DNA of 64,000 nt. It comes from Parcubacteria group bacterium. GTDB taxonomy: Bacteria > Patescibacteriota > Minisyncoccia > Phycocordibacterales > Phycocordibacteraceae. Location: contig JAQBRL010000020.1 of NCBI GenBank assembly GCA_028286525.1, positions 7,444 through 71,443 of the forward strand, in the 5' to 3' direction. The number at the start of each line of letters is the position of its first letter. The stretch's first letter is position 1. The notes beneath the pieces are model-generated. The model had not been told where the DNA came from, searched no databases, and was given only the letters and a program-made list of their open reading frames with translations. A program made the translations under genes and the position numbers. Below, piece by piece: positions 1 through 49,578 of the stretch.

Positions 1-2835
1 GCCCAAGAAAAATGGGAGAAGCTCGACCTGTATGCGACCGATCTCACGGACGATTCGAAGGAGAAGTACTATCTCCTCTTCGAATTCCCGTATCCTTCCG
101 GCGACCTGCATATCGGGCACTGGTATGCCTTCGCGCTGACCGACATCTACGCACGCAAGCTGCGCATGGCCGGGAAGAATGTCCTGTTCCCGATGGGCTT
201 CGACGCCTTCGGCCTGCCCGCCGAGAACGCTGCTATCAAGAATGGCGTGGACCCTAAGAAATGGACGTACGAGAACATGGAGCGCATGCGCACCCAGATG
301 CGCACGATGGGAGCCTCTATGGATTGGAGCAAAGAGGTCGTCACCTGCGATCCCGGCTACTACAAATGGACGCAGTGGCTCTTCGCGAAGCTGTTCGAGC
401 ATGGTCTCGCCGAGCGCAAGAACGCAGCGGTAAAATGGTGCCCCTTCGACAAGACGGTGCTCGCCAACGAGCAGGTGATCGATGGCCATTGCGAACGCTG
501 CGGCCACGAAGTCGAGGAAAAGAATCTCACCCAGTGGTTCCTGAAGATCACCCAATACGCCGAACGCCTCCTGAAGGATCTGGAGCCTCTTCCGTGGCGC
601 GAAGATATCAAGGATGCGCAGCGCGCGTGGATAGGCGAAAGCGAGGGCGCGAAGCTGGTCTTCATGGCGCACACGGGAGAGGAGGATGCACCGGTGCCGC
701 TCGAAGTGTTCACCACCCGCCCGGACACCGTCTTCGGCGCGACCTACCTGGTGCTCGCGCCTGAGCATCCGATGGTCGATGTCTTGATACAGGACGCGCT
801 CAATCCCGAGGCGATACGGGCCTACCAGCGAGAGACCGGTAAAAAGACCGAACGCGAGCGCAGCGAGAACAAGGAGAAGACCGGCGTCGCGCTCGAAGGC
901 ATCACCGCGACGAATCCCGCTACCAAAGAAGAGGTGCCGGTCTACCTGGCTGACTACGTCCTCGCGTCGTACGGTACGGGTGCGGTCATGGCGGTGCCGG
1001 CGCATGACGAACGCGATTTCGAATTCGCGCAGCGTTATCAGCTCCCTATCAAGGACGTCATCGAGCCGGTGTTCGTGCGCACCATCGGCACGGACGCCGT
1101 GCGTCCGGAGGAACCCATGGTAGAGCGCCAGGCGGTGGTCGCTATCGTAAAGCACTGGGGGGAGGACAAGTACCTGTGCCTTCGCTGGAAATCGAACGAC
1201 TGGACCGGCTTCGTCATCGGCGGCATCGAGGAAGGCGAAGAGCCGAGCGTCACGGGCGCCCGCGAGATAACGGAAGAGACCGGCTATAAGAACCCGCGAT
1301 TCGTGCGTGATATGGGAGTGCCCACGCATTCGCAGTTCTATCACGAGGTGAAGCGCCAGAATCGCTTCGCGCATTTCACTCCCCTGTACTACGAGCTTGC
1401 GGACGGCGAGCGCGAGGAACCTTCGGCCGAGGAGCTCGCCATTCACGATATAGAGTGGGTAGCGAAAGAGGATATGGATGCGTATCTTTCACGCGATAAT
1501 GACATCGCCTATATATGGAAGCGTTTCGTCGCTCCTGCGTTCCCATACACGGGCGACGGTATCCTCGCCAACTCGGACAGCTTCGATGGACGCAGCAATC
1601 GCGAAGCGATGACCGAGCTGATCGCGTACGCGGGCGGCGAAGCCGTCAAGCAGTACCGTCTGCGGGATTGGCTCGTCTCGCGCCAGCGCTACTGGGGCTG
1701 CCCGATACCGATCGTCTACGATCCGGAAGGGAATGCGCACCTCGTGCCGAACGACCATCTGCCTTGGCTGCTTCCGGAAGATGTGGATTTCACGCCAGGC
1801 GCCGCGGGTGTCGGTACCTCGCCGCTTTCTACTTCCCGCGAGCTCAAGGAGCGCGTCGAGCGCATCTTCGGTGCGGGTTGGACCCCGGAATACGACACTC
1901 TCGATACCTTCGTCGATTCATCGTGGTACTACCTGCGCTACGTGGACCCCGCGGACGCGCATGATTTCTCGGACCAGGGCTTGCTGAAGAAATGGATGCC
2001 GGTGGATCGCTACTCGGGCGGAAGCGAGCATACGACCATGCATCTTCTCTATGCCCGGTTCTTCAATAAAGCGCTGTACGACCTTGCGCTCGTGCCGACC
2101 TCCGAACCATTCAATGAGCGCTACAACCGCGGCGTCATCCTCGGGCCGGATGGAGCGAAGATGAGCAAATCGAAAGGCAACGTCATCAATCCCGACGAAG
2201 TCGTATCGAAATTCGGTTCGGACGCCGTACGCATGTACCTCGCCTTCATCGGTCCTTATAACGAAACCGGCAGTTATCCCTGGAATCTCGACGGGGCCTT
2301 CGCGATGCGTAAATTCCTGGACAGGGTATACACGCTGTTCGAGGGAACGGCAACGGAGAAATCGAATCCGGAGGTACTCCGTGCGCTCGCGGTAGCTATC
2401 GATAAAGTCACTGCCGATACCGACCGCTTCAAATTCAATACCGCGCTTTCGGCGCTCATGGTGCTGGTTCGGGACCTGGAGAGCCATGCGCAGCTCGCCC
2501 CGGACGCGAAGCGAACGCTCCTCGCCCTGCTTGCGCCGTTCGCGCCTCATCTGGCGGAGCATTTGTGGGAGAAGATGGGCGAGGAAGGAAGCGTGCACCA
2601 AATGGTATGGCCGGAAGCGGACCCCGCACTCCTTTCGGCCAGTGAGATCGTGATAGGAGTACAGGTGAACGGAAAAAAACGCGGCGAAGTGCGCCTGTCG
2701 CTCACTGCTTCTGAAGATGAAGCGCTCATGGAGGCCCGGAAGGTTCCAGCGATCGCGCTGCTCCTCGGAGAGACCGCTCCCGCGCGCGTCGTCTATGTCC
2801 CGGGCCGTATCCTGAACATAGTCACCCAGGGGTGA
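1..2835 (+). CDS. leuS: Leucyl-tRNA synthetase, 5' partial. Carries an internal NUDIX-box insertion of about 155 aa (see findings).
   Basis: Frame-1 translation from nt 1 reads HIGH (LHIGHWY), AVPAHDERDFEFA, YRLRDWLVSRQRYWGCPIPI and KMSKSKGN; the ORF is open at the window start. Confidence 0.95.
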   Translation, partial: AQEKWEKLDLYATDLTDDSKEKYYLLFEFPYPSGDLHIGHWYAFALTDIYARKLRMAGKNVLFPMGFDAFGLPAENAAIKNGVDPKKWTYENMERMRTQMRTMGASMDWSKEVVTCDPGYYKWTQWLFAKLFEHGLAERKNAAVKWCPFDKTVLANEQVIDGHCERCGHEVEEKNLTQWFLKITQYAERLLKDLEPLPWREDIKDAQRAWIGESEGAKLVFMAHTGEEDAPVPLEVFTTRPDTVFGATYLVLAPEHPMVDVLIQDALNPEAIRAYQRETGKKTERERSENKEKTGVALEGITATNPATKEEVPVYLADYVLASYGTGAVMAVPAHDERDFEFAQRYQLPIKDVIEPVFVRTIGTDAVRPEEPMVERQAVVAIVKHWGEDKYLCLRWKSNDWTGFVIGGIEEGEEPSVTGAREITEETGYKNPRFVRDMGVPTHSQFYHEVKRQNRFAHFTPLYYELADGEREEPSAEELAIHDIEWVAKEDMDAYLSRDNDIAYIWKRFVAPAFPYTGDGILANSDSFDGRSNREAMTELIAYAGGEAVKQYRLRDWLVSRQRYWGCPIPIVYDPEGNAHLVPNDHLPWLLPEDVDFTPGAAGVGTSPLSTSRELKERVERIFGAGWTPEYDTLDTFVDSSWYYLRYVDPADAHDFSDQGLLKKWMPVDRYSGGSEHTTMHLLYARFFNKALYDLALVPTSEPFNERYNRGVILGPDGAKMSKSKGNVINPDEVVSKFGSDAVRMYLAFIGPYNETGSYPWNLDGAFAMRKFLDRVYTLFEGTATEKSNPEVLRALAVAIDKVTADTDRFKFNTALSALMVLVRDLESHAQLAPDAKRTLLALLAPFAPHLAEHLWEKMGEEGSVHQMVWPEADPALLSASEIVIGVQVNGKKRGEVRLSLTASEDEALMEARKVPAIALLLGETAPARVVYVPGRILNIVTQG
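1219..1287 (+). other. Canonical NUDIX box (GX5EX7REUXEEXGU) encoded inside leuS
   Basis: The peptide GGIEEGEEPSVTGAREITEETGY fits G-x5-E-x7-R-E-I-x-E-E-x-G-Y exactly. Confidence 0.75.
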
Positions 2836-2884: not shown

Positions 2885-3961
2885 ATGATTATGGCGAAAA
2901 AAGCAGTATCCAAAGGCTCTACGAAGAAGGCGGTGGTCACGAAACTGTCTTTCGACGGGGCGACCCTCGTGAAGAAGCTCCTGGCCGAGGTACCGGACCG
3001 TGCCCGCGAGGTCCTGGTGTACCGGTTCGGTCTGGGCACGTCTTCCGAACGGGAGACCCTCGAGGCTATCGGCGAACGCTGGGGCATCACCCGCGAACGC
3101 GTGCGCCAGATCGAGGCGTCCGGCATCGAAGCCATTCGCCATTCGAATGCATTCCGCGCCTCCGAAGGCGCCTTCGATGAGCTGCGCAATTATATCGAAG
3201 CCCAGGGCGCAGTCGTCCCTGAAGACGTGCTTCTCTCCGGACTCGCCACCGATGAGAAGAGCCGTAATCGCATCCGCTTCCTCCTAGTCGTCGGCAGCTC
3301 CTTCTTCCGCGAACGCGAGACCGACGAGTTCTATGCCCGCTGGCACGTCGACCATCGCACCGCCGAAATGGTGCACGCCGCGCTCACGCGCCTGTACGCT
3401 ACGCTCGACGACGCCGAAGTCCTCTCCGAAGGGGAGATCGTGAACCGCTTCCTTGAGGAATTAAAGGATGTCAACGCCGCGTATCGCAACGAAGAGATAC
3501 TCAAGCGCTGGCTCTCACTCTCGAAGAACATTGCGAGCAATCCGCTGGCCGAGTGGGGCAAGGCGCATGCACCCGCCATCCGCACCAAGGGCATACGCGA
3601 CTACGCCTATCTCGTCATCAAGCAGAAGGGCGAACCGATGCACTTCTCGGAGGTCGCGAAAGCCATTACGAGCGTATTCTCGAAGAAAGCGCATGTAGCT
3701 ACGACGCACAACGAGCTCATCAAGGATTCCCGTTTCGTGCTCGTGGGCCGCGGCCTCTACGCGCTCGCCGAGTGGGGCTACCAGCCGGGCGTCGTCCGCG
3801 AAGTCATTCGCGATGTGCTCAAGAAGAAGCCGCTTACGCGCGATGAAGTCATCGACTCGGTCAAGAAGGTCCGCTACGTGAAAGACAACACCATCCTGGT
3901 GAACCTGAACGACACGCGCTATTTCAAGAAGACTAAGGACGGCAAGTACTCGCTCGTCTAG
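2885..3961 (+). CDS. Sigma-70 region-4-like HTH plus C-terminal HARE-HTH domain protein
   Basis: The N-terminal RERVRQIEASGIEAIRH resembles sigma70 region 4.2. The C-terminal FSEVAKAI...VLVGRGLYALAEWGY is HARE-HTH-like. Confidence 0.55.
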   Translation: MIMAKKAVSKGSTKKAVVTKLSFDGATLVKKLLAEVPDRAREVLVYRFGLGTSSERETLEAIGERWGITRERVRQIEASGIEAIRHSNAFRASEGAFDELRNYIEAQGAVVPEDVLLSGLATDEKSRNRIRFLLVVGSSFFRERETDEFYARWHVDHRTAEMVHAALTRLYATLDDAEVLSEGEIVNRFLEELKDVNAAYRNEEILKRWLSLSKNIASNPLAEWGKAHAPAIRTKGIRDYAYLVIKQKGEPMHFSEVAKAITSVFSKKAHVATTHNELIKDSRFVLVGRGLYALAEWGYQPGVVREVIRDVLKKKPLTRDEVIDSVKKVRYVKDNTILVNLNDTRYFKKTKDGKYSLV

Positions 3962-4036: not shown

Positions 4037-5395
4037 ATGTCTTCCGGTGGCTTCGACCTCCTTCACGCAGCGCACGATAAGGGCATCTTCATATCGGCGC
4101 AGCCGTTCATAATCTGCTTCTTGGCCGCGAACTTCGCATTCCTCACCATCGCGCCGCTGCAGACCCTGCACAATTTCGAGTTCCTCGCGCTCACGTCGCC
4201 CGTCTGGCTTCCTATCCTTCTCGGTCGTTTCGCTATCTTGCGGTGGATAAGCGCCAATCGCATGGCATTCCTCTCGAATCAGGAGTACGTCCTGCTTGAG
4301 ATACGAGTCCCGCGCGATGTGCGCAAGACCCCGCTCGCGATGGAAGCGGTATTCTCTTCCATCCACCTCTCTCCCGGAGAATCCACCTGGTGGAAGCGCG
4401 TCGTGATAGGCGCGGTACGTCCTTCCTGGTCGTTCGAGATAGTTTCGCTCGGCGGGCGCGTGCATCTCTATGTGCGCACCCGCGTTGGCTTCAGGCGAGG
4501 CCTCGAGAGCTACATATACGCGCAGTACCCCGAAGTGGAAATAGTAGAGGCGACCGACTACAGCCTCCTCATCGACCCGTCGCATGCTCCGTACGATCTC
4601 TGGGGCACGGAATATAAATTCACGGGCAAGGACGTCTATCCTATCCGCACGTACGCGGAATTCATGAAGCCGGATTCGGCGCTTCCGAAACCCGAAGAGC
4701 AGATAGACCCGCTCGCGCAGATAATCGAATTCCTCGGCTCCCTCTCCCCGAAGGAGCAATTCTGGATACAGATCATGATCCGGGTGAACAAGAACGAGAA
4801 GTATCATGGGAGAAAGACCGCTAGCGGCGATCCGTACACCATCAAGGACGAGCGGAACGACGAGGTGGAGGTCATTCGTACCAGCACCGTCCGCAAGCAG
4901 ACCCATGTGGATCCGGCGACCGGTAAGACCTATGAGACCGAAAGCTTCCCTAATCCGACGAAAGGGCAGCAGAACGCCATGGAAGTCCTCGATCGCAAGC
5001 TTTCGAAGCCGCTATTCGATGTCGGCATTAGATCCCTCTATACGGCTCCGAAAGAGGCATACCAATCGAGCGTCATCAGCCACCTCATCGGCTTGTGGAA
5101 GCCTATCGCGTCGGAGCAGGGAAACTCGCTCGCCATCGCGCGCTGGCACGCCAATTTCGATGATTGGCCATGGGAAGATCGCAAGGGTATCCATCACGCG
5201 CACGTGGCGCACGGTCTCGTGGATTCGTACCGCAGGCGCGCCTATTTCAACGAACCCTATGTCATGCCCTGGCTTATCATGAATACCGAGGAGCTCGCGA
5301 CCATATTCCATATTCCGACCTCGGGGGTCACCACGCCGAGCCTGCCGCGTATACAGTCGTCTACTAGTGAGGCGCCTTCGAATCTTCCTACATAA
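4037..5395 (+). CDS. Hypothetical membrane-anchored protein
   Basis: A long non-Arg-biased ORF with N-terminal hydrophobic helices follows the terminator. No family was recognised. Confidence 0.5.
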   Translation: MSSGGFDLLHAAHDKGIFISAQPFIICFLAANFAFLTIAPLQTLHNFEFLALTSPVWLPILLGRFAILRWISANRMAFLSNQEYVLLEIRVPRDVRKTPLAMEAVFSSIHLSPGESTWWKRVVIGAVRPSWSFEIVSLGGRVHLYVRTRVGFRRGLESYIYAQYPEVEIVEATDYSLLIDPSHAPYDLWGTEYKFTGKDVYPIRTYAEFMKPDSALPKPEEQIDPLAQIIEFLGSLSPKEQFWIQIMIRVNKNEKYHGRKTASGDPYTIKDERNDEVEVIRTSTVRKQTHVDPATGKTYETESFPNPTKGQQNAMEVLDRKLSKPLFDVGIRSLYTAPKEAYQSSVISHLIGLWKPIASEQGNSLAIARWHANFDDWPWEDRKGIHHAHVAHGLVDSYRRRAYFNEPYVMPWLIMNTEELATIFHIPTSGVTTPSLPRIQSSTSEAPSNLPT

Positions 5396-5510: not shown

Positions 5511-6521
5511 ATGCTTATGCCAATTACCCAGTGGTTAAAAATAATCTTTTTGGTGCTCAGCATGCATCTTGCGCGTCTCAAATACTGGTACGCGGCGTTT
5601 TTCCTCATCCTCGTTCTCGCGCTGAGCATCTTCTCGTACGTTTTCCTCCTCCCTCCTGCCGGTTTCCATCCGAATACCACGCTCGCGGTCGCGCCGGGCA
5701 CAAGCGTTCGGCATGAGGCTGCGCTCCTGAAGGAGGCGCATGTGATACGCTCCACATTCGTATTCCGTGCGCTCTATCGCCTGATGCCCAGTACGCATGG
5801 CGTGCAAAGCGGTGTCTATGATTTCACGTATCCCATCGGCGAGCTTCGGCTCGCATGGGACTTAGCGCACGGCATTTCCGAAGTGCCCGAGGCTCGAATA
5901 ACATTTCCGGAAGGTACGACGGTCCGGCACATGGGCATGCAGCTCGCCAACACGCTCCCCGGAGTGAACGAACGGGAATTCCGGCAGCTTGCGCTTCCGG
6001 AGGAAGGCTACCTGTTCCCGGACACCTACTTCTTCCGGTCGGACGCTACGACGACAGAAGTGATCGCCATACTCAGATCCAATTTCGAGGACCACTTCGC
6101 AGGGCATGCGGAGCAGTTCGCCGCATTCGGGAAGCCGGAGCGGGAGGTCATCATCATGGCCTCCATTCTTGAAGGCGAAGGCAAGACACTTGAGGACAAG
6201 CGCATCATTGCGGGCATCCTCTGGCATCGCATCGCGCTCGGCATGCCGCTGCAGGTAGATGCGCCGTTCGGGTACGTGCATGGCGCAGCAGGCTATACGC
6301 CTACCGCAGCGGATCTGGCGAGCGATTCCCCGTACAATACCTACCGCACCAAAGGATTGCCGCCCACGCCCATAAACAATCCGGGCGACGTGTCGATACA
6401 GGCAGCCATCACGCCTACGAAGTCCGCGTACCTGTACTATCTGACCGGTACGGACGGGACGATGCATTACGCCAAGACATTCAGCGAGCACATCGCGAAT
6501 CAAAAGAAGTATTTAAAATGA
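5511..6521 (+). CDS. mltG: Endolytic murein transglycosylase MltG/YceG
   Basis: The N-terminal TM segment and the YLYYLTG / GLPPTPI motifs are typical of YceG. Confidence 0.85.
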   Translation: MLMPITQWLKIIFLVLSMHLARLKYWYAAFFLILVLALSIFSYVFLLPPAGFHPNTTLAVAPGTSVRHEAALLKEAHVIRSTFVFRALYRLMPSTHGVQSGVYDFTYPIGELRLAWDLAHGISEVPEARITFPEGTTVRHMGMQLANTLPGVNEREFRQLALPEEGYLFPDTYFFRSDATTTEVIAILRSNFEDHFAGHAEQFAAFGKPEREVIIMASILEGEGKTLEDKRIIAGILWHRIALGMPLQVDAPFGYVHGAAGYTPTAADLASDSPYNTYRTKGLPPTPINNPGDVSIQAAITPTKSAYLYYLTGTDGTMHYAKTFSEHIANQKKYLK

Positions 6522-6942
6522 AAAGTCGCGAGCATGCCGTAGTGGCAGCGGCTCGCGACTCCTCGGCTCTTACCTGGAACATGGCGTCGTTTCCTCGTCT
6601 CGCCGCTCGGTCGACGACCGTTTCTCGATCCTTCCGTCGCGTACGGCCTCTTGGAATTCGCTCTGCGGCAGGCCGCAGCCTCGTTGCTGATCCACGATGA
6701 CCCACGCATGGCCTTGGATGACTCGCGCGCGCCCTATCAGTAAGGCTTTGTTTTCTAAGGGCGCTTCAGGACGGTGGCCATGAGGATGGCGCAGCCGTAT
6801 CACGCGATGGGGTGCTACCGCGAATTCCATCGTTCCAGGTTGTCTATCTTTGGGCAAAGAACTCACCTCCTTTCGATGCAAGCGTAAGGTAACCGCATTA
6901 TTGTTACTTCAGGAAGTTTGTCAAGAATGCTATATAGAATGC

Positions 6943-7974
6943 ATGAAGTATCTCGCTGGAAAAAAGATATTCGTCGGTCTTTCCGGCGGCGTTGATTCCG
7001 CGGTCACCGCCGCGCTCCTGCAGCAAGCGGGCGCTGACGTATACGGCGTATTCATCAAGGGTTGGTATCCCCCGGAGCTCCTGTGCACCTGGGCAAGCGA
7101 CCGTCGTGACGCGATGCGCGTGGCTGCCCATCTAGGCATTCCATTCCATACGCTCGACGCGTCGAAGGAGTACAAGCGATCGGTCATTGACTATCTCGTC
7201 CGTGAGTATGGCGCGGGACGCACTCCCAATCCGGACATTATGTGCAATCGCGACGTAAAATTCGGCGTGTTCTACGAATTCGCCAAAGCCTACGGAGCGG
7301 ACCATATCGCGACCGGGCACTACGCCCGTCAGGAAGGGGGGAGACTTCTCCAAGGACTCGACCCCGAGAAGGACCAGAGCTACTTCTTGTGGGCGATCTC
7401 GCCTCTCGCGCTCTCCATGACCCTCTTTCCGCTCGGCGCGCTCCATAAGAGCGAAGTGCGTACGCTCGCGAAGAGTTTCGATCTTCCGAATGCGGACAAA
7501 AGGGATAGTCAGGGCATCTGCTTCCTGGGGCCGGTTTCCATGGATGATTTTCTCCGCGCCGAGCTCCCGAACCAGCCCGGAAAAGCTATCGATGAGAGCG
7601 GTATCGAAGTGGGCCAGCATGACGGCGTCCTGCTCTCGACGCTCGGTGAGCGCATCGCGCTTAGGAGCGCCGTTCCAGGACCATGGTATGTACTCGAAAA
7701 GGACATTCCGAATAACGTTCTCGTCGTCGCGAAGGAGCGCAGAGCGGAAGCGAGCACGTCCGCACTACACCTTGCAGATGCGAACTGGTTCACCAAACCC
7801 AGCGAGAGCGAAGAAGTGCACGGGCAGTATCGGTATCATGGGCCGTTTGTCGCGGGCGTGCTGCGCGCAGACGTGTTCGTCCCGAACGAACCTGCGACCG
7901 AACCCATCGCGAGCGGCCAATCGCTGGTGCTGTACCAGGGCGACGAAGTACTCGGTGGTGGTATTATCGGGTAA
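6943..7974 (+). CDS. mnmA: tRNA 2-thiouridylase MnmA
   Basis: A PP-loop SGGVDSAV motif is present and the layout matches MnmA. The start was chosen at MKYLAGKK. Confidence 0.9.
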   Translation: MKYLAGKKIFVGLSGGVDSAVTAALLQQAGADVYGVFIKGWYPPELLCTWASDRRDAMRVAAHLGIPFHTLDASKEYKRSVIDYLVREYGAGRTPNPDIMCNRDVKFGVFYEFAKAYGADHIATGHYARQEGGRLLQGLDPEKDQSYFLWAISPLALSMTLFPLGALHKSEVRTLAKSFDLPNADKRDSQGICFLGPVSMDDFLRAELPNQPGKAIDESGIEVGQHDGVLLSTLGERIALRSAVPGPWYVLEKDIPNNVLVVAKERRAEASTSALHLADANWFTKPSESEEVHGQYRYHGPFVAGVLRADVFVPNEPATEPIASGQSLVLYQGDEVLGGGIIG

Positions 7975-8810
7975 TGCCAGTAGAGATAGTTAAAACCGAC
8001 GGAACCACCGAAGCGTTCGATGGCATGAAGCTCGAGTGGTCGCTCCGTCGCGCAGGCGCAACGACGCATACCGCCGAGCGCATCCGGCACACCATCGAAG
8101 CTTCCATTTCGGCCGGTGCGCCCACGCAAGAGATATACAAGCGCGCGTTCCAGATGCTTCGCCATGACGCGCGGCCTGCCGCCGCGCGCTACAGCCTGCG
8201 GCGGGCCTTATTCGAGTTCGGCCCTTCGGGCCATCCGTTCGAGAATTACGTTTCCGAACTTTTCAAGAAAGAAGGATGGTCCGTGGAATATCGCCGCGTC
8301 ATTCCCGGTAAATGCGTATCGCACGAAGTCGACGTGTACGCGACCCGCAATGGGGAATACCTTGCGGCGGAACTCAAATATCATAATGACCCCGGGTACA
8401 AGACCGACGTGAAGACAGCCCTGTACGTGAAAGCTCGCTTCGACGATATCTGGCAATGCGATCCCAAACATGATGAGCACTGTCCGGTCGATCACGGATT
8501 CCTGATAACCAATACGAAATTCACGCGCGATGCGGTGCAGTTCGCCACCTGCTCCGGTATCCAGCTCCTGGGGTGGAGCTACCCCGCAGAGGGAAGCCTC
8601 TATGACCGCATAGTCGCGACCGGTCTCTATCCGGTGACGGCGCTCACCATGCTCAAGAAGACCGAAAAGAGATTGCTTATCGACCAAGGCATCGTTACCT
8701 GCGACCAGGTACGCGAGAACCGCGACGTGCTCCGCGCGCTCAATATCGCTCCGGAACGCATCGGTACTATACTCGCCGAGGCCAACACCCTTTGTAACTC
8801 CTACGCATAA
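7974..8810 (+). CDS. ATP-cone domain fused to an Mrr/PD-(D/E)xK restriction-endonuclease-like domain
   Basis: The N-terminus is ATP-cone-like (VEIVKTDGTTEAFDGMKL...). The middle region has the HEVDVY...ELKYH catalytic signature. Confidence 0.65.
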   Translation: MPVEIVKTDGTTEAFDGMKLEWSLRRAGATTHTAERIRHTIEASISAGAPTQEIYKRAFQMLRHDARPAAARYSLRRALFEFGPSGHPFENYVSELFKKEGWSVEYRRVIPGKCVSHEVDVYATRNGEYLAAELKYHNDPGYKTDVKTALYVKARFDDIWQCDPKHDEHCPVDHGFLITNTKFTRDAVQFATCSGIQLLGWSYPAEGSLYDRIVATGLYPVTALTMLKKTEKRLLIDQGIVTCDQVRENRDVLRALNIAPERIGTILAEANTLCNSYA

Positions 8811-8815
8811 ACGAT

Positions 8816-9601
8816 ATGGCCGACTTCAAGAAGCAGTACAATCCGAATCGGAACGCCGACTGGAACTATGGCGGCCCGAAATGGCGTCTTTCGCGCTCCA
8901 AGATCGAGCTATTCAACGAGTGCCCGCGCTGCTTCTACCTCGATAACAAGCTAGGGACCGCGCGTCCGCGCGGCCCCGCCTTCACTCTCAATATCGCGGT
9001 CGATACGCTCTTCAAGAAGGAATTCGACGCCCACCGGAATGCTGCGACCGCGCATCCGTTGATGACCAAGTACGGTATCGATGCCGTACCATTCGCGCAC
9101 GCGAAGATGGATACGTGGCGAGAGAATTTCGAAGGGGTCGATTACTTCCATGAGCCGACCGGCTTCACCATTTCAGGCGCCGTAGACGATATCTGGGTGA
9201 ATCCTAAAGGCGAGCTCATCGTAGTCGACTACAAGGCGACCTCGAAGGACGGCACCATCACCACGCTCGAGGATTCTTCCTGGAACGAGCAGTACAAGCG
9301 CCAGATGGGGGTGTATCAGTGGCTCCTGCGCAACAATGGATTCGCGGTCTCTTCCACCGGCTACTTCGTATATGCGAACGCACGCTCCGATAAAAAGGCA
9401 TTCGATGGAACGCTCGAATTCGAAGTCACCGTAGTGCCGAGCGAAGGCGACACGAACTGGATAGATGACGTTCTACCCAAGATAAAGGAGACGCTCGATA
9501 GCCAATCCATTCCTCCTTCTGGAAAGGCGTGCGAATACTGCCCGTACCGCGAGGCAGCAGGGAAGAAGCTGCAGGCGATCCACAAAGCAGCGAAGCGGTA
9601 G
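8816..9601 (+). CDS. Cas4/RecB-like PD-(D/E)xK nuclease with four Cys (putative Fe-S cluster)
   Basis: Motifs read as VDDIW, VVDYK and QYKRQMGVYQWLL (QxxxY). Cys pairs are CPRCF at the N-terminus and CEYCPY at the C-terminus. Confidence 0.6.
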   Translation: MADFKKQYNPNRNADWNYGGPKWRLSRSKIELFNECPRCFYLDNKLGTARPRGPAFTLNIAVDTLFKKEFDAHRNAATAHPLMTKYGIDAVPFAHAKMDTWRENFEGVDYFHEPTGFTISGAVDDIWVNPKGELIVVDYKATSKDGTITTLEDSSWNEQYKRQMGVYQWLLRNNGFAVSSTGYFVYANARSDKKAFDGTLEFEVTVVPSEGDTNWIDDVLPKIKETLDSQSIPPSGKACEYCPYREAAGKKLQAIHKAAKR

Positions 9602-13230: not shown

Positions 13231-15213
13231 ATGACCGTTTCAGAAGTACGCACACGTTACCTCGCCTTCTTTGCGGCGCGTGGTCACGTCATAATCCCAT
13301 CAGCACCGATAGTGCCGGGGAACGACCCTACCACGCTCTTTACCTCGTCCGGCATGCAGCCCCTTATTCCGTACCTGCTCGGTAAGGACCACCCGGAAGG
13401 GAAGCGCATCGTTAATTCCCAGATGAGCTTTCGGGCGGGCGATATCGAGGAAGTGGGCGACAATCGCCACACGACGTTCTTCGAGATGCTCGGCAATTGG
13501 TCGCTCGGCGACTATTTCAAGAAAGAGCAGCTACCCTGGTTCTTCGAGTTCATGACGAGCAAAGAAGAAGGCTTAGGACTCGATCCTACGAAACTCTTCG
13601 TCACGGTATTTGCGGGCGACCCCGATACGGGCATGGAGATGGATACCGAAGCCGTGGGCATATGGCAAGAACTCTTCAAGACCAAAGGCATCGATGCCGA
13701 ATTCGCGGATATCGGCAGCGAAGCAGCCGGCTACGAGCACGGCATTAATGGTAACGAACGCATATTCGCTTACGACGCCAAGAAGAACTGGTGGAGCCGC
13801 TCGGGCGTACCTGCCAACATGCCTGCCGGAGAGCCAGGTGGACCGGATTCCGAGGTCTTCTACGACTTCGGTCTTCCGCACGACCCAAAGTGGGGCCCGA
13901 AATGCCATCCGAACTGCGACTGCGGCCGTTTCGTCGAGATAGGGAACTCGGTCTTCATGCAGTTCATAAAGAATGCTGACGGGTCATTCTCGAATCTTCC
14001 GAAGCAGAACGTGGACTTTGGAGGCGGGCTTGAGCGTCTTGCGTTCGCTACGCTCGATAAACCTGACGTTTTTCTCATAGATGTATTTGATACAGCTCGG
14101 AACGCGATTGAATATCTATCCGGAAAAATATATGGGTCAGATGAAAAAATAACAAAGTCTTTCCGCATCATTTTGGATCACATGAGAGCATCCACCTTCA
14201 TCCTTGCTGAAGGTATAGTTCCCGCAAGCACGGAGGCTGGTTATGTCCTTAGGCGTTTGTTGCGTCGCGCAATTCGTGAGACCGATAGATTGGGAGTCAA
14301 GGACAAAGTTCTTGCATCTGTAGCTGAAGAGTTTGCTGACAAATATGCAGACCAGTATCCACGCTTGCAGGAAAATAAGCTCAAGATTTTGGATGAAATT
14401 GCAAAGGAAGAGGAGCAGTTCAGGAGAACACTCGAAACGGGTTTGAAGCAATTCGAGAAGGCAATCAGCATTAAGTCAGGCATTGTTAGCAATGCCGATC
14501 AACGCAAGGAACTTGAAGAACGAGTCTACATTAAGACTCTGGGAGCAGAAACGGTTTTCGAGTTGATGACAACCTATGGCTTCCCAGAAGAACTCATTCG
14601 AGAAGAACTAGCTTCGCACAATATCTCAGTTGATGATTGGGATATGGTCAAAAGCTTGTTCGAAAAACATCGCGAGCTTTCCCGCGCCGGAGGCGCGCAG
14701 AAATTCGCCGGAGGCCTTGCCGACCACTCCGAGCAGACCGTGCGCTACCACACGACGCATCACATCCTACTCAAAGCGCTCCAGATGGTGCTCGGGGACG
14801 AGGTCAAGCAGCGGGGAAGCAATATCACGAGCGAGCGCTTGCGCATCGACTTCTCCTCCCCCGGCAAGATGACTCCAGAGCAGAAAGAAGAGGTAGAGAG
14901 GATAGTGAACGAAATTATCTACCAGGACCTGCCGGTATCGCGCACCGTCATGCCACGGGAAGAGGCCGAGAAGCTCGGTGCCCAGATGGAATTCGGGGTG
15001 AAGTATCCCGACATGGTATCGGTGTATTCGGTCGGTCCTATCCATGCAACAGAGGAGAATCCCGATATTCCGAACGCATTCTCGCTGGAGTTCTGCGGCG
15101 GACCGCATGTGAAGAGCACAAAGGATATCCATGACGGCGGCAAGCGTTTCAAGATACAGAAAGAGGAGGCAGTCGCTGCAGGCATCCGCCGCATCAAGGC
15201 AGTGCTCGAATAA
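13231..15213 (+). CDS. alaS: Alanyl-tRNA synthetase, short form (catalytic, tRNA-recognition and editing domains; no C-Ala domain)
   Basis: Class II AlaRS N-terminal motifs are present. The editing-domain HTTHHILLKALQ and CGGPHV signatures are also present. The protein is 660 aa. Confidence 0.95.
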   Translation: MTVSEVRTRYLAFFAARGHVIIPSAPIVPGNDPTTLFTSSGMQPLIPYLLGKDHPEGKRIVNSQMSFRAGDIEEVGDNRHTTFFEMLGNWSLGDYFKKEQLPWFFEFMTSKEEGLGLDPTKLFVTVFAGDPDTGMEMDTEAVGIWQELFKTKGIDAEFADIGSEAAGYEHGINGNERIFAYDAKKNWWSRSGVPANMPAGEPGGPDSEVFYDFGLPHDPKWGPKCHPNCDCGRFVEIGNSVFMQFIKNADGSFSNLPKQNVDFGGGLERLAFATLDKPDVFLIDVFDTARNAIEYLSGKIYGSDEKITKSFRIILDHMRASTFILAEGIVPASTEAGYVLRRLLRRAIRETDRLGVKDKVLASVAEEFADKYADQYPRLQENKLKILDEIAKEEEQFRRTLETGLKQFEKAISIKSGIVSNADQRKELEERVYIKTLGAETVFELMTTYGFPEELIREELASHNISVDDWDMVKSLFEKHRELSRAGGAQKFAGGLADHSEQTVRYHTTHHILLKALQMVLGDEVKQRGSNITSERLRIDFSSPGKMTPEQKEEVERIVNEIIYQDLPVSRTVMPREEAEKLGAQMEFGVKYPDMVSVYSVGPIHATEENPDIPNAFSLEFCGGPHVKSTKDIHDGGKRFKIQKEEAVAAGIRRIKAVLE

Positions 15214-15233: not shown

Positions 15234-16382
15234 TTGCTATACTCTGAACACATGGGGTTATTCAAGAAGGCCGGCACCAGTTTTGCGCTCATCGATATCC
15301 GCTCCTCATCCGTTGGCGCGGCGTATGCGGTCATAGATGCCGACCGCGCTCTCACCCTCGTCTACAGCGCGCGCGTACCGCTCGACCCGCACGCCACCGA
15401 ACCGCTGGCCGAAGCGTTGCCGCGCACGCTCGAGAAGGCGCTCGGCCTGCTCGTGAGCGAAGGCGCACCGCTTTTGCACGCCATGGCGGGCACGGGAAAG
15501 GCCGATCATGTCTACGTGACCTTTACGGCGCCCTGGCAGCACTCGGAGGTACGCAGCGCGGTCATCGAGAACGAGAAACCGTTCGTATTCACTCAGGAAC
15601 TCCTCAATGAGTCGGTCGCGGACGAAGAAGGCGAGAACAAGGGACGTACCCGGGTCAGCCAGATGATCATCGCTACGCTTCTGAACGGGTATGAAGTCCA
15701 GAATCCCTTCGGCAAGAAGGTGAACCGCGCGGAGCTCATCCTCCTGTCTTCCTCGCTTCCGGACGATGTCACCGAACTCGTGACGAAGGAAGTGCGCAAA
15801 GCGCTCCACCAGCATCAGATCGAATTCAACGCCTTCATGCCGGAAGCGTTCGTCGCCATGCAGGACCTTTATCCGCATCAACGGGATTTTCTCGTGCTTG
15901 ATGTCGGGAACGACGCCACCGATATGCTGCTCATAAAGCATGGGCTTCTCATATCCATAAGCTCGATGGCCCATGGGGTGAGCGAGATCACGCGTGCGGC
16001 CCAGGGTATGGGGGTTTCCTCCCCGGCAGTCCCGCTTGCTGCGGCGCCGCTCGTCGATATGGGACGCAATACCAGCTTCGCGTCTAAAGTCGAAGAGGCG
16101 GAACGCGAATGGCTTCAGACCATCCGCACCGAGCTGGGCGAGATAGCGAAGCAAGAGCCGCTCCCGCGTACGGTCTTCCTTCTTGCGGAGGAGAACGTGC
16201 GGGACTTCCTCGCGCGCCTGCTCGACGCCCCCGAGCTGCGCTCCCTGTGGCTTTCCGACGAGGCCCTCGCCATCATGCCGGTCCTTCCGATCCATTTCGC
16301 ACCGTTCGTGGGGGTGCAAGGGAACACGGAAATAGACCCGACTCTCGCGCTGCTCGCGCTCTCCGCGGCAAAACGTCTCTAG
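15234..16382 (+). CDS. Hypothetical; actin-like ATPase fold (PilM/FtsA-like)
   Basis: FALIDIRSSSVGAAYAVID and FLVLDVGNDATDMLLI resemble the PilM/FtsA phosphate motifs. Confidence 0.4.
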   Translation: MLYSEHMGLFKKAGTSFALIDIRSSSVGAAYAVIDADRALTLVYSARVPLDPHATEPLAEALPRTLEKALGLLVSEGAPLLHAMAGTGKADHVYVTFTAPWQHSEVRSAVIENEKPFVFTQELLNESVADEEGENKGRTRVSQMIIATLLNGYEVQNPFGKKVNRAELILLSSSLPDDVTELVTKEVRKALHQHQIEFNAFMPEAFVAMQDLYPHQRDFLVLDVGNDATDMLLIKHGLLISISSMAHGVSEITRAAQGMGVSSPAVPLAAAPLVDMGRNTSFASKVEEAEREWLQTIRTELGEIAKQEPLPRTVFLLAEENVRDFLARLLDAPELRSLWLSDEALAIMPVLPIHFAPFVGVQGNTEIDPTLALLALSAAKRL

Positions 16383-49098: not shown

Positions 49099-49578
49099 AT
49101 GACGCTTCCCGAAGCTGAATATTATGCAGGCCTCGCGAAGAAAGGCTGCGGCGCTGCCGTTCTTCTCTTTAATGAGAGAGGCGAACTGCTTATCGTTGAC
49201 CCGAACTACAAACCCGATTGGGGACTTCCGGGCGGTGCGGTCGATGCTGATGAATCGCCGCGACTCGGAGCCCTTCGCGAAGTGCGGGAGGAGCTTGGCA
49301 TCTCCTTATCAACGCTTACGCTCATAGGGGTCGATTACATTCCGAGCAACCCTCCGCGTACCGAGGCGCTCTACCTTACCTTCGATGGAGGTGTCCTGAA
49401 CGGAAAGGAAATCGAATCCATCATTCTGCAGAAAGACGAACTGGACGAGTATCGCTTCGTGGATATCGCTGAAGCCATACAGCTTCTCAATCCACGGCAA
49501 GGAGGAAGATTGCCAGCATGTCTCGAAGCGCGAGCAAAAGGAACGGTCGCCTATACCGAGAATGGTATGCTTACGTAA
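49099..49578 (+). CDS. NUDIX hydrolase
   Basis: A NUDIX box is present (GLPGGAVDADESPRLGALREVREELGI). Confidence 0.85.
   Translation: MTLPEAEYYAGLAKKGCGAAVLLFNERGELLIVDPNYKPDWGLPGGAVDADESPRLGALREVREELGISLSTLTLIGVDYIPSNPPRTEALYLTFDGGVLNGKEIESIILQKDELDEYRFVDIAEAIQLLNPRQGGRLPACLEARAKGTVAYTENGMLT

What the first reader, a model, noticed from the sequence alone, without database searches (positions are those of the whole stretch)
1072..1545. Complete NUDIX hydrolase domain inserted inside leucyl-tRNA synthetase
In E. coli LeuS only about 15 residues separate IKPVI from the following TEKGVL/YTGDG-equivalent block. Here the equivalent stretch (IKDVIEPVF ... AFPYTGDG) is about 155 residues. It contains a textbook Nudix box (GGIEEGEEPSVTGAREITEETGY = GX5EX7REUXEEXGU) plus flanking sequence of the right size for a whole Nudix fold. 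A Nudix pyrophosphohydrolase module fused into a class I aaRS, just after the CP1 editing domain, would be an unusual architecture. Speculatively, it could hydrolyse Ap4A or aminoacyl-adenylate-derived dinucleotides, or act in editing. The same window also carries a free-standing NUDIX gene, so this is not simply the organism's only copy.
Basis: partly seen in the sequence, partly recalled or inferred. Interest (0 to 1): 0.72.

Follow-up and report, generated by a model that had tools for sequence, protein, structure and literature searches.

The report
Nudix hydrolase nested inside leucyl-tRNA synthetase
A complete, apparently active Nudix pyrophosphatase domain sits inside the proofreading domain of this bacterium's leucyl-tRNA synthetase; the fusion is conserved across the ultra-small Patescibacteria, is swapped like a cassette between near-identical enzymes, and I found no paper describing it.

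Summary
Window 1-2835 (+) encodes a bacterial-type LeuRS that is cut off at the window start. It is 100% identical to a Parcubacteria MAG protein of 958 aa. A 160-aa segment (nt 1066-1545) replaces a 13-15-aa loop of T. thermophilus and E. coli LeuRS. This segment is a complete Nudix domain:
- Pfam PF00293 scores 47.8 bits (cut-off 21.1).
- The AlphaFold2 model has pLDDT 96.
- The 23-aa Nudix box is intact.

One correction: the domain is nested inside the C-terminal part of the CP1 editing domain, not after it.

The fusion is not a one-off. 119 of the 120 nearest LeuRS homologues carry it, as do many Patescibacteria classes and some gut Bacilli MAGs. The three metal-binding Glu residues are 98-100% conserved over 366 domains. 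The LeuRS synthetic and editing motifs are intact.

New observations:
- The Nudix behaves as a swappable cassette: LeuRS cores 97% identical carry inserts 37% identical.
- Relatives nest up to three Nudix domains plus Ham1, HAD and serine-hydrolase domains in LeuRS.
- Free-standing family members often lie next to leuS.

The most likely function is an active nucleotide-derivative pyrophosphatase (ApnA or NTP house-cleaning type) carried on LeuRS. The substrate is unknown. I found no paper on it.

The parts
1..2835 (+). leuS, leucyl-tRNA synthetase. The 5' end (14 codons) lies outside the window; the stop codon is included.
   Evidence: NCBIfam TIGR00396 leuS_bact scores 872 bits (cut-off 548). 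100% identical to P0121, 958 aa, named 'leucyl-tRNA synthetase [Parcubacteria group bacterium]'. Pfam domains.
109..120 (+). HIGH signature of the class I catalytic domain
   Evidence: Translates to HIGH. Invariant in the 60-sequence full-length alignment A4.
622..1065 (+). CP1 editing domain, N-terminal three quarters. Includes the T-rich motif TTRPDT (712-729) and HDERD with the conserved editing Asp (1003-1017).
   Evidence: PF13603 scores 184.6 bits over profile positions 1-143 of 185. Motifs translated. They are invariant or nearly invariant in the alignments A1 and A4.
1066..1545 (+). Nested Nudix domain with its linkers (P0121 residues 370-529)
1219..1287 (+). Nudix box GGIEEGEEPSVTGAREITEETGY. 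The metal-binding Glu residues are E436, E439 and E440 (P0121 numbering).
   Evidence: Conservation over 366 domains: E436 99%, E439 98%, E440 100%.
1546..1668 (+). C-terminal remainder of CP1 (YTGDGILANS...YRLRD), leading back into the catalytic domain
   Evidence: Aligns to T. thermophilus LeuRS from residue 377 on. In the insert-less P0127, PF13603 covers this stretch continuously.
2158..2172 (+). KMSKS signature of the class I catalytic domain
   Evidence: Translates to KMSKS. K734, M735, S736 and K737 are invariant in A4 and the last Ser (S738) is at least 90% conserved.
2885..3961 (+). Downstream neighbour: a Sigma70_r4 + HARE-HTH protein. This is conserved synteny with leuS, not part of the enzyme.
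   Evidence: Pfam. The same gene type follows a Nudix-bearing leuS on another contig.
49099..49578 (+). Free-standing Nudix gene of a different subfamily. It is not the source of the insert.

Best explanation
The gene encodes a bifunctional enzyme. It is a fully competent bacterial LeuRS: HIGH, KMSKS, and the CP1 editing motifs TTRPDT and HDERD are all present. A surface loop of its CP1 editing domain hosts a complete, folded and probably catalytically active Nudix pyrophosphohydrolase.

The Nudix domain belongs to a family centred on Patescibacteria. That family also exists as free-standing proteins of 160-190 aa, several of them encoded next to leuS.

Inferred mechanism: the Nudix helix glutamates (E436, E439, E440) bind divalent cations and hydrolyse a pyrophosphate bond in a nucleoside-polyphosphate compound. 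The most likely substrates are dinucleoside polyphosphates (Ap3A, Ap4A and the like, which aaRSs themselves make as by-products) or non-canonical (d)NTPs. This would be a nucleotide house-cleaning activity riding on an abundant, essential protein. It would not be a step in leucylation or proofreading.

What is shown: the domain, its nesting site, its predicted fold, conservation of its catalytic residues, its wide distribution, its cassette-like exchange, and its co-occurrence with other house-cleaning hydrolases in LeuRS.

What is inferred: catalytic activity, the substrate class, and independence from the LeuRS reactions.

For: Catalytic residues over 366 family domains: E436 99%, E439 98%, E440 100%, G421 99%, K465 98%, W500 97%. 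E436, E439 and E440 are the only invariant columns among the positions of the 197-aa query fragment in a 95-sequence alignment.

LeuRS is intact: TIGR00396 872 bits, and the editing motifs are at least 90% conserved in Nudix-bearing homologues.

The fusion is lineage-wide: 119 of 120 nearest clusters, and about 74 of 80 GTDB loci carry it at the same site.

Free-standing members sit next to leuS: P0255 and P0389 lie directly upstream of it. In L087 an insert-less LeuRS sits in a same-strand cluster metG-tatD-Nudix(family)-YfbR-like nucleotidase-Nudix-leuS.

Other house-cleaning hydrolases are nested in LeuRS of relatives: Ham1/ITPase at 191 bits, HAD_2, Ser_hydrolase, and extra Nudix copies.

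Clostridial stand-alone proteins keep the Nudix glutamates but have lost the CP1 editing residues. They sit among cytidylate kinase, CYTH, Ham1 and His-phosphatase genes.

The nearest solved relatives include ApnA hydrolases (3i7u, Ndx1, CT771, Rv2985) and RppH. ApnA are by-products of aaRSs and are removed by Nudix enzymes (PMC4734340).
Against: There is no biochemical evidence. No named Nudix subfamily model reaches its cut-off; the best is RppH at 20 bits against a cut-off of 118. Identity to any solved Nudix protein is only 14-21%, so the substrate class is a guess.

About 20% of family members have lost the first box Glu (E427 to Q or M) together with R435 (to K or A). Those members may be altered or inactive.

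The strict conservation of one nesting site within CP1, across two different LeuRS backbones (Patescibacteria and Bacilli), and the retention of a CP1 remnant in the stand-alone clostridial proteins both hint at a functional tie to CP1. Pure 'hitch-hiking' does not explain that.

Confidence: 0.6

Rival explanations
1. The Nudix domain is mechanistically coupled to LeuRS. It destroys products or substrates at the enzyme itself: Ap4A/Ap3A made from Leu-AMP plus ATP, a mis-activated adenylate derivative, or a 5'-triphosphate or cap on tRNA(Leu) lying next to the CCA end that CP1 handles.
For: The nesting site is always the same CP1 loop, in both Patescibacteria-type and Bacilli-type LeuRS backbones. 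Clostridial stand-alone proteins keep a degenerate CP1 half attached to the Nudix. One free-standing copy overlaps pth, and others lie near proS or within a metG-leuS cluster. RppH and ApnA hydrolases are among the nearest neighbours. aaRSs make ApnA (PMC4734340).
Against: The close relative P0127 (78% identity over the aligned 45% of the query) and the L087 LeuRS lack the insert. Extra Nudix copies are nested at other LeuRS sites, together with unrelated hydrolases. Aminoacyl-adenylate has no pyrophosphate bond for a Nudix enzyme to cut (general enzymology). From my own recollection, not checked here, LeuRS is not among the main Ap4A producers.
Confidence: 0.2
2. The nested Nudix is a variable immunity or conflict cassette. 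It hydrolyses nucleotide-type toxins or signals, for example adenylate-mimicking antibiotics aimed at LeuRS, or phage- or competitor-derived nucleotides. Its subtypes are exchanged under diversifying selection.
For: Core and insert identities are uncorrelated (Spearman 0.026 over 7021 pairs). Near-identical LeuRS backbones carry inserts only 24-37% identical, with sharp boundaries at the insert. Multi-Nudix LeuRSs combine different subtypes. A clostridial relative sits beside a kinase with weak viperin-associated-kinase hits (VakA 36 bits) and CYTH; a radical-SAM gene is called in the related L084 cluster. The insert has a weak PADLOC candidate hit, PDC-S07 at 21 bits.
Against: There is no known defence-system membership. 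The PADLOC hit is at generic Nudix level. No toxin or partner gene sits next to leuS in the window. The swapping could be neutral recombination through very conserved flanks.
Confidence: 0.1
3. The domain is a non-catalytic ligand sensor or structural module. It binds a nucleotide (Ap4A, ADP-ribose or an alarmone) or tRNA and tunes LeuRS, as Nudix-like domains do in NrtR regulators.
For: NrtR and AraR Nudix-like regulators appear among the structural matches. About 20% of members have lost E427 and R435. The window LeuRS lacks the leucine-specific domain found in T. thermophilus and E. coli, so an extra tRNA-contacting module is conceivable.
Against: The three metal-binding glutamates are 98-100% conserved, including in free-standing members. 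That is the signature of catalysis rather than binding alone.
Confidence: 0.07
4. The insert is a neutral or selfish insertion with no function, or an assembly artefact.
For: Patescibacterial proteins often carry lineage-specific insertions (general knowledge). The insert evolves faster than the core, 37% against 70% mean identity.
Against: It is found in hundreds of independent assemblies from NCBI, JGI, ENA and Logan. The reading frame is intact and the composition matches the host gene: GC3 0.74 against 0.76. The predicted fold is confident and functional residues are strictly conserved.
Confidence: 0.03

Closest known systems
Bacterial LeuRS with a CP1 editing domain (T. thermophilus 1H3N/2BYT; E. 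coli 4AQ7/3ZGZ)
   Same: The proteins are collinear over the whole length: 645 bits to T. thermophilus and 595 bits to E. coli. HIGH, KMSKS, the T-rich motif, the editing Asp and the C-terminal domain are all present.
   Different: A 160-aa Nudix domain replaces the 13-15-aa loop at T. thermophilus 364-376. The leucine-specific domain (T. thermophilus about 592-636) is absent. A 2026 survey of domain insertions reports PF13603 only as an inserted domain, with no instance of it acting as a host (PMC13114784). Here it is the host.
Small bacterial Nudix hydrolases: E. faecalis MutT/nudix 2azw, T. thermophilus Ndx1 (Ap6A hydrolase) 1vc8, A. aeolicus Ap4A hydrolase 3i7u, E. coli RppH
   Different: Identity is only 14-21%. 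Sequence E-values are at best 3e-4. The domain scores below every NCBIfam subfamily cut-off. It is nested in another domain and has family-specific conserved residues (W410, K465, N468, E492, W500).
Other aaRSs carrying an extra enzymatic domain, for example IleRS with a GNAT domain (NCBIfam NF040702) and ProRS with an INS/YbaK-type editing domain
   Same: A class I or class II synthetase serves as host for an additional catalytic module. The NF040702 model exists in the library and matches only through its synthetase part.
   Different: The added domain here is a pyrophosphatase with no known role in aminoacylation fidelity. It is nested two levels deep: Nudix inside CP1 inside the Rossmann fold.
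House-cleaning nucleotide pyrophosphatases (Nudix MutT type, Ham1/ITPase, HAD and HD nucleotidases)
   Same: Relatives nest Ham1, HAD_2 and further Nudix domains in LeuRS, or encode YfbR-like HD nucleotidases beside leuS.
   Different: These enzymes are normally free-standing. Collecting them inside one synthetase has, as far as I could find, not been described.

Membership tests
Bacterial leucyl-tRNA synthetase (TIGR00396 leuS_bact) | Whole-protein score above the curated cut-off | tested here: met
   872.1 bits against a cut-off of 548.4, in two stretches split by the insert.
Bacterial leucyl-tRNA synthetase (TIGR00396 leuS_bact) | Class I signatures HIGH and KMSKS | tested here: met
   HIGH at nt 109-120 and KMSKS at nt 2158-2172. 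Both conserved in A4 (HIGH invariant; KMSK invariant, final S at least 90%).
Bacterial leucyl-tRNA synthetase (TIGR00396 leuS_bact) | CP1 editing domain with the T-rich motif and the conserved Asp | tested here: met
   PF13603 scores 184.6 bits. TTRPDT at 712-729 and HDERD at 1003-1017. Both at least 90% conserved.
Bacterial leucyl-tRNA synthetase (TIGR00396 leuS_bact) | Leucylation and editing activity | not testable with these tools
   Needs enzyme assays.
Nudix hydrolase superfamily (Pfam PF00293) | HMM score above the gathering threshold | tested here: met
   47.8 bits for the insert alone and 42.2 bits in the whole protein, against 21.1.
Nudix hydrolase superfamily (Pfam PF00293) | Nudix box GX5EX7REUXEEXGU | tested here: met
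   Exact match at nt 1219-1287. The REx2EE glutamates are 98-100% conserved over 366 domains.
Nudix hydrolase superfamily (Pfam PF00293) | Alpha/beta/alpha sandwich fold | tested here: met
Nudix hydrolase superfamily (Pfam PF00293) | Metal-dependent pyrophosphohydrolase activity | not testable with these tools
   Inferred only from residue conservation.
Nudix ApnA (Ap4A/Ap6A) hydrolases | Significant similarity to characterised members, plus an aromatic (Tyr) residue about 16-18 residues after the box. The Tyr rule is recalled from Dunn et al. 1999 and was not re-read here. | tested here: inconclusive
   3i7u matches at E 3e-4 by sequence. Ndx1, CT771 and Rv2985 are among the fold hits. F/Y occupies position +17 in 97% and position +18 in 93% of domains. 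There is no subfamily model to score against, and identity is at most 21%.
RppH RNA pyrophosphohydrolase (NCBIfam NF001935/36/38) | Score above the curated cut-off | tested here: not met
   17-20 bits against cut-offs of 116-259.
MutT 8-oxo-dGTPase (TIGR00586 / NF008044) | Score above the curated cut-off | tested here: not met
   No hit for the insert at E<=0.01. Only MutT1 of mycobacteria appears, at 16.6 bits against 475.
Known anti-phage defence proteins (PADLOC-DB) | Match to a defence-system model | tested here: inconclusive
   Only the candidate model PDC-S07 at 21 bits, E 4.5e-5, which is generic Nudix similarity.

The most novel reading that the evidence does not exclude
In Patescibacteria, and in some genome-reduced Bacilli, LeuRS serves as a modular platform. 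Exchangeable nucleotide-hydrolase cassettes are nested into it: one to three Nudix subtypes, Ham1, HAD and serine hydrolase. The CP1-nested Nudix is swapped between near-identical LeuRS backbones the way immunity genes are. This could be because it neutralises nucleotide-type toxins, antibiotics or signals at the enzyme they target. Alternatively, it could tailor nucleotide-pool sanitation in cells that must scavenge all their nucleotides.
Probability: 0.15. Interest if true: 0.85.

Novelty: new variant of a known kind. Interest (0 to 1): 0.7.

Why it matters
Aminoacyl-tRNA synthetases are among the best-studied enzymes. Their CP1 editing domain is regarded as a pure insert that never hosts other domains (PMC13114784). 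Here a second catalytic domain is nested inside CP1, and it is conserved across a large part of the bacterial tree.

If the Nudix is active, these organisms physically couple tRNA charging with pyrophosphate hydrolysis of some nucleotide. That gives a concrete, testable entry point into two questions: ApnA and non-canonical-nucleotide metabolism in Patescibacteria, which are thought to depend on scavenged nucleotides, and why essential enzymes of ultra-small cells accumulate extra domains.

The cassette-like exchange of the insert between nearly identical LeuRS genes is a clean natural example of domain swapping inside an essential gene.

On the practical side, many of these proteins are labelled only 'class I tRNA ligase family protein'. 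Their annotation could be improved.

Tried and rejected
1. The window's free-standing Nudix (49099-49578) as source of the insert: rejected. The two are similar only in the box.

2. Recent foreign acquisition: rejected. GC and GC3 of the insert equal those of the rest of leuS.

3. The many 200-430-aa 'LeuRS+Nudix' hits as split genes: mostly explained otherwise. No hit exceeds 433 aa (about 1.75 times the query length), which I took to be a length limit of the search. Other causes are short contigs and UGA-recoded lineages (L028 and L037 need code 25). L081 may be a real split or a frameshift.

4. Assigning a named Nudix subfamily through NCBIfam: nothing reaches its cut-off.

5. Defence-system membership through PADLOC: only a weak generic hit.

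6. The search for related loci with the diverse alignment A2 failed because it had no conserved stretch. The narrower alignment A3 worked.

7. The AFDB Foldseek library was not available.

8. The window's own contig could not be fetched to see what lies upstream of leuS, because P0121 is not on record.

9. Model coordinates are not exposed. I could not measure distances between the Nudix cleft, the editing pocket and the tRNA path.

10. Six literature searches and three paper look-ups found no description of a LeuRS-Nudix fusion.

11. The third homologue search, with the A2 profile, returned only 8 proteins because of the word-index limits.
Full report
**1. Observation**

The window begins inside a long frame-1 ORF that ends at nt 2835. 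The first 100 codons already contain PYPSGDLHIGH, so the gene starts upstream of the window. The translation is 100% identical to a 958-aa protein deposited as 'leucyl-tRNA synthetase [Parcubacteria group bacterium]' (P0121). Window nt n corresponds to P0121 residue 15+(n-1)/3.

It carries GGIEEGEEPSVTGAREITEETGY at nt 1219-1287. Pfam PF00293 scores 47.8 bits (E 1.9e-12, cut-off 21.1) on the segment and 42.2 bits in the whole protein.

phmmer alignments to solved LeuRS structures break at residue 369 and resume at 530. T. thermophilus goes from 363 to 377, and E. coli (tagged numbering) from 380 to 396. So 160 residues replace 13-15.

**2. Exact position**

The insert is nested in CP1, not placed after it. 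PF13603 matches profile positions 1-143 of 185 before the insert. In P0127, a close relative without the insert (808 aa, 78% identity over the aligned 45% of the query), the same profile runs continuously over positions 1-182 across the junction.

The editing motifs TTRPDT and HDERD lie upstream of the insert. They are at least 90% conserved in Nudix-bearing homologues, as are HIGH and KMSKS. NCBIfam TIGR00396 scores 872 bits against a cut-off of 548. The host is therefore a complete LeuRS with an intact editing site. It lacks the leucine-specific domain of T. thermophilus and E. coli.

**3. The insert is a whole Nudix fold**

AlphaFold2 on residues 358-554 with a 95-sequence alignment gives pLDDT 96.1 and pTM 0.90, with the strand-helix-strand order of a Nudix domain. 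In the full-length model (pLDDT 85.7, pTM 0.74) the insert stays at 84-96 per ten-residue block.

Identity is only 14-21%. The best sequence match in the PDB is 3i7u at E 3e-4. No NCBIfam Nudix subfamily comes near its cut-off; the best is RppH at 20 bits against 118. Superfamily membership is therefore firm, while subfamily and substrate remain open.

**4. Distribution**

Of the 120 best full-length LeuRS homologues (61-76% identity, 940-1134 aa), 119 carry PF00293. Where named, they come from Parcubacteria, Paceibacterota or Patescibacteria MAGs.

A scan of one genome per GTDB species, using a Nudix-only alignment, gave 132 confirmed loci, of which 80 were kept. In about 74 of these the match lies inside a LeuRS ORF of roughly 940 to 1735 aa (shorter where the contig ends) that is collinear with P0121 across the insert. 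The record titles include Kaiser-, Taylor-, Moran-, Berkel-, Magasanik-, Buchanan-, Adler-, Peri- and Gracilibacteria; the last two need genetic code 25. The set also includes about a dozen gut MAGs titled Bacilli, Erysipelotrichaceae or Mycoplasmatota. Their LeuRS core is Firmicute- or Mollicute-like: L072 scores 615 bits to Mycoplasma mobile LeuRS, against 449 bits for the window protein. I did not verify the binning of those MAGs.

A profile search of 1.84 billion cluster representatives found 160 proteins at E<=1e-30 and 475 at E<=1e-10.

**5. Conservation**

Over 366 family domains the frequencies are as follows:

| Residue (P0121 numbering) | Conservation |
|---|---|
| E436 | 99% |
| E439 | 98% |
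| E440 | 100% |
| G421 | 99% |
| G442 | 98% |
| K465 | 98% |
| W500 | 97% |
| N468 | 91% |
| E492 | 90% |
| E427 | 79% (otherwise mainly Q or M) |
| R435 | 81% (otherwise mainly K or A) |

E427 and R435 are less conserved, and in the alignment they are replaced in the same subclades. The same pattern holds in free-standing members. This is the conservation profile of an enzyme, not of a spacer.

**6. Cassette behaviour (new)**

Across 119 homologues, mean identity is 69.5% in the LeuRS core and 37.3% in the insert. The two are uncorrelated (Spearman 0.026, 7021 pairs).

Among the 27 pairs with cores at least 85% identical, insert identity is bimodal: 17 pairs at 71-99% and 10 pairs at 24-50%. 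P0164 and P0226 are 100% identical over residues 305-345 and 549-620 but only 5-40% identical between about 355 and 535. The window protein and P0122 behave the same way, 85% against 34%.

Distinct Nudix subtypes are therefore exchanged between near-identical backbones. The likely route is recombination through the highly conserved flanks. The window's insert has the same GC and GC3 as the rest of leuS.

**7. LeuRS as a hub for hydrolases (new)**

- P0154, L007 and L011 have two family Nudix domains.
- P0241, P0242 and L017 have three.
- L017 (1735 aa) adds a serine/alpha-beta hydrolase and a HAD_2 domain.
- L019 adds a complete Ham1/ITPase (191 bits).
- L051 has two Nudix stretches, only one of which matches the family profile, plus a serine hydrolase.
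- P0177 and L031 (Pfam-confirmed) carry serine hydrolases; the L005 and L008 ORFs show a similar alpha/beta-hydrolase-like insert by eye, which I did not scan.

**8. Free-standing relatives and gene context**

Proteins of 160-190 aa from the same family exist, including the N-terminal linker motif. They score E 1e-40 to 1e-50 against the profile.

- P0255 and P0389 lie directly upstream of a Nudix-bearing leuS.
- In L087 the LeuRS lacks the insert. It sits in a same-strand cluster: metG, tatD, a family Nudix (186 bits), a YfbR-like HD nucleotidase, a second unrelated Nudix, and leuS.
- One copy overlaps the end of pth, near hisS, def and fmt.
- One lies near proS.
- Two have uninformative contexts.
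- In Clostridia, 273-290-aa proteins combine a degenerate C-terminal CP1 half with an intact Nudix. In them HDxRD has become HVKEH or HIPEH, and TTRPDT is lost. They sit among cytidylate kinase, CYTH, Ham1 and histidine-phosphatase genes, with a radical-SAM gene in the L084 cluster.

**9. Interpretation**

The best-supported reading is a bifunctional protein: a normal LeuRS plus an active Nudix pyrophosphohydrolase. The Nudix most plausibly acts on dinucleoside polyphosphates or aberrant (d)NTPs, that is, nucleotide house-cleaning. The supporting points are the enzyme-like conservation, the company of other house-cleaning hydrolases, the nucleotide-metabolism context of stand-alone forms, and the kind of nearest structural neighbours. 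ApnA are aaRS by-products removed by Nudix enzymes (PMC4734340).

Direct participation in editing is unlikely. The editing site is intact, close relatives do without the insert, and aminoacyl-adenylate offers no pyrophosphate bond. Even so, the invariant nesting site and the CP1 remnant kept by the clostridial proteins leave room for a functional tie to CP1 or to the tRNA acceptor end. The cassette-like exchange leaves room for a conflict or immunity role. The substrate is unknown, and I could not inspect model coordinates.

**10. Novelty**

Both parts are known families, and the fusion is already visible in precomputed Pfam annotations of public proteins. Six full-text searches and three look-ups found no description of it. 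A 2026 survey of domain insertions states that the LeuRS editing domain never acts as a host (PMC13114784). I rate it a new variant of a known kind, with interest 0.7.

Noticed in passing
P0164 vs P0226, P0157 vs P0211, P0151 vs P0187, and window LeuRS vs P0122 (P0121 residues about 355-535 = window nt about 1021-1563): The Nudix insert behaves as a swappable cassette. LeuRS cores are 85-97% identical while inserts are 24-37% identical, with sharp boundaries at the insert. Core and insert identities are uncorrelated over 7021 pairs (Spearman 0.026).
   Followed up: partly
L017:2738-7942 (Taylorbacteria, 1735 aa); L019:2717-6796 (1360 aa); L051:2426-6340; L031:2852-6487; P0177; P0154; P0241; P0242: LeuRS of relatives hosts several nested hydrolases: up to three Nudix domains, Ser_hydrolase/alpha-beta hydrolase, HAD_2, and a complete Ham1/ITPase. 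L019 has a further insert of about 140 aa that I did not identify.
   Followed up: partly
L060, L063, L066, L070-L078, L080 (for example L072:2897-5713): Gut MAGs titled Bacilli, Erysipelotrichaceae or Mycoplasmatota have a Firmicute/Mollicute-type LeuRS with a Nudix nested at the same CP1 loop. Their Nudix resembles the 'ELGGRL-VGGT' subtype of some Parcubacteria. This suggests transfer of the cassette between phyla. Binning was not verified.
   Followed up: partly
L040:3686-4549, L055:3686-4546, L084:4001-4822 (P0392): Clostridial stand-alone proteins of 273-290 aa consist of a degenerate C-terminal half of CP1 (editing residues lost) plus an intact Nudix. They sit in clusters with cytidylate kinase (weak viperin-associated-kinase hits), CYTH, Ham1 and histidine phosphatase genes; the L084 cluster also has a radical-SAM gene. 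There are at least 9 cluster representatives.
   Followed up: partly
L087:482-8549 (GCA_023245955.1, JAHFJI010000005.1): A 'Rosetta-stone' arrangement. This LeuRS has no insert. It is preceded on the same strand by metG, tatD, a free-standing family Nudix, a YfbR-like HD nucleotidase and a second, unrelated Nudix that ends 4 nt before leuS.
   Followed up: yes
L081:25-3898 and the P0255 contig (JGI 3300071358): Free-standing family Nudix genes lie directly upstream of Nudix-bearing leuS. In L081, leuS is called as two overlapping ORFs that break inside the N-terminus of the nested, divergent Nudix. This could be a frameshift, a sequencing error or a true split.
   Followed up: partly
L029:3364-4447: A free-standing family Nudix overlaps the 3' end of pth (peptidyl-tRNA hydrolase), in a neighbourhood that includes hisS, def, fmt and lepB.
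   Followed up: no
window about 2150-2180 (around KMSKS): The window LeuRS lacks the leucine-specific domain present in T. thermophilus (about 592-636) and E. coli LeuRS. The alignment joins directly across it.
   Followed up: no
window 13231-15213 (+): The AlaRS is only 660 aa (tRNA-synt_2c plus tRNA_SAD). From my recollection, typical bacterial AlaRS is roughly 870 aa with an extra C-terminal region, which seems to be missing here. I did not check this.
   Followed up: no
window 7974-8810 and 8816-9601 (+): An ATP-cone domain fused to an Mrr-like restriction-endonuclease fold is followed by a PD-(D/E)XK/Cas4-like nuclease, directly after mnmA (6850-7974).
   Followed up: no
window 4037-5395 (+) and 15234-16382 (+): Two large ORFs (452 and 382 aa) have no Pfam match. 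The first lies between the sigma70_r4/HARE-HTH gene and mltG (YceG, 5511-6521).
   Followed up: no
P0125, P0137, P0173, P0177 and others: NCBI names many of these proteins only 'class I tRNA ligase family protein'. This may be because the insert splits the LeuRS model match, but I did not test that.
   Followed up: no
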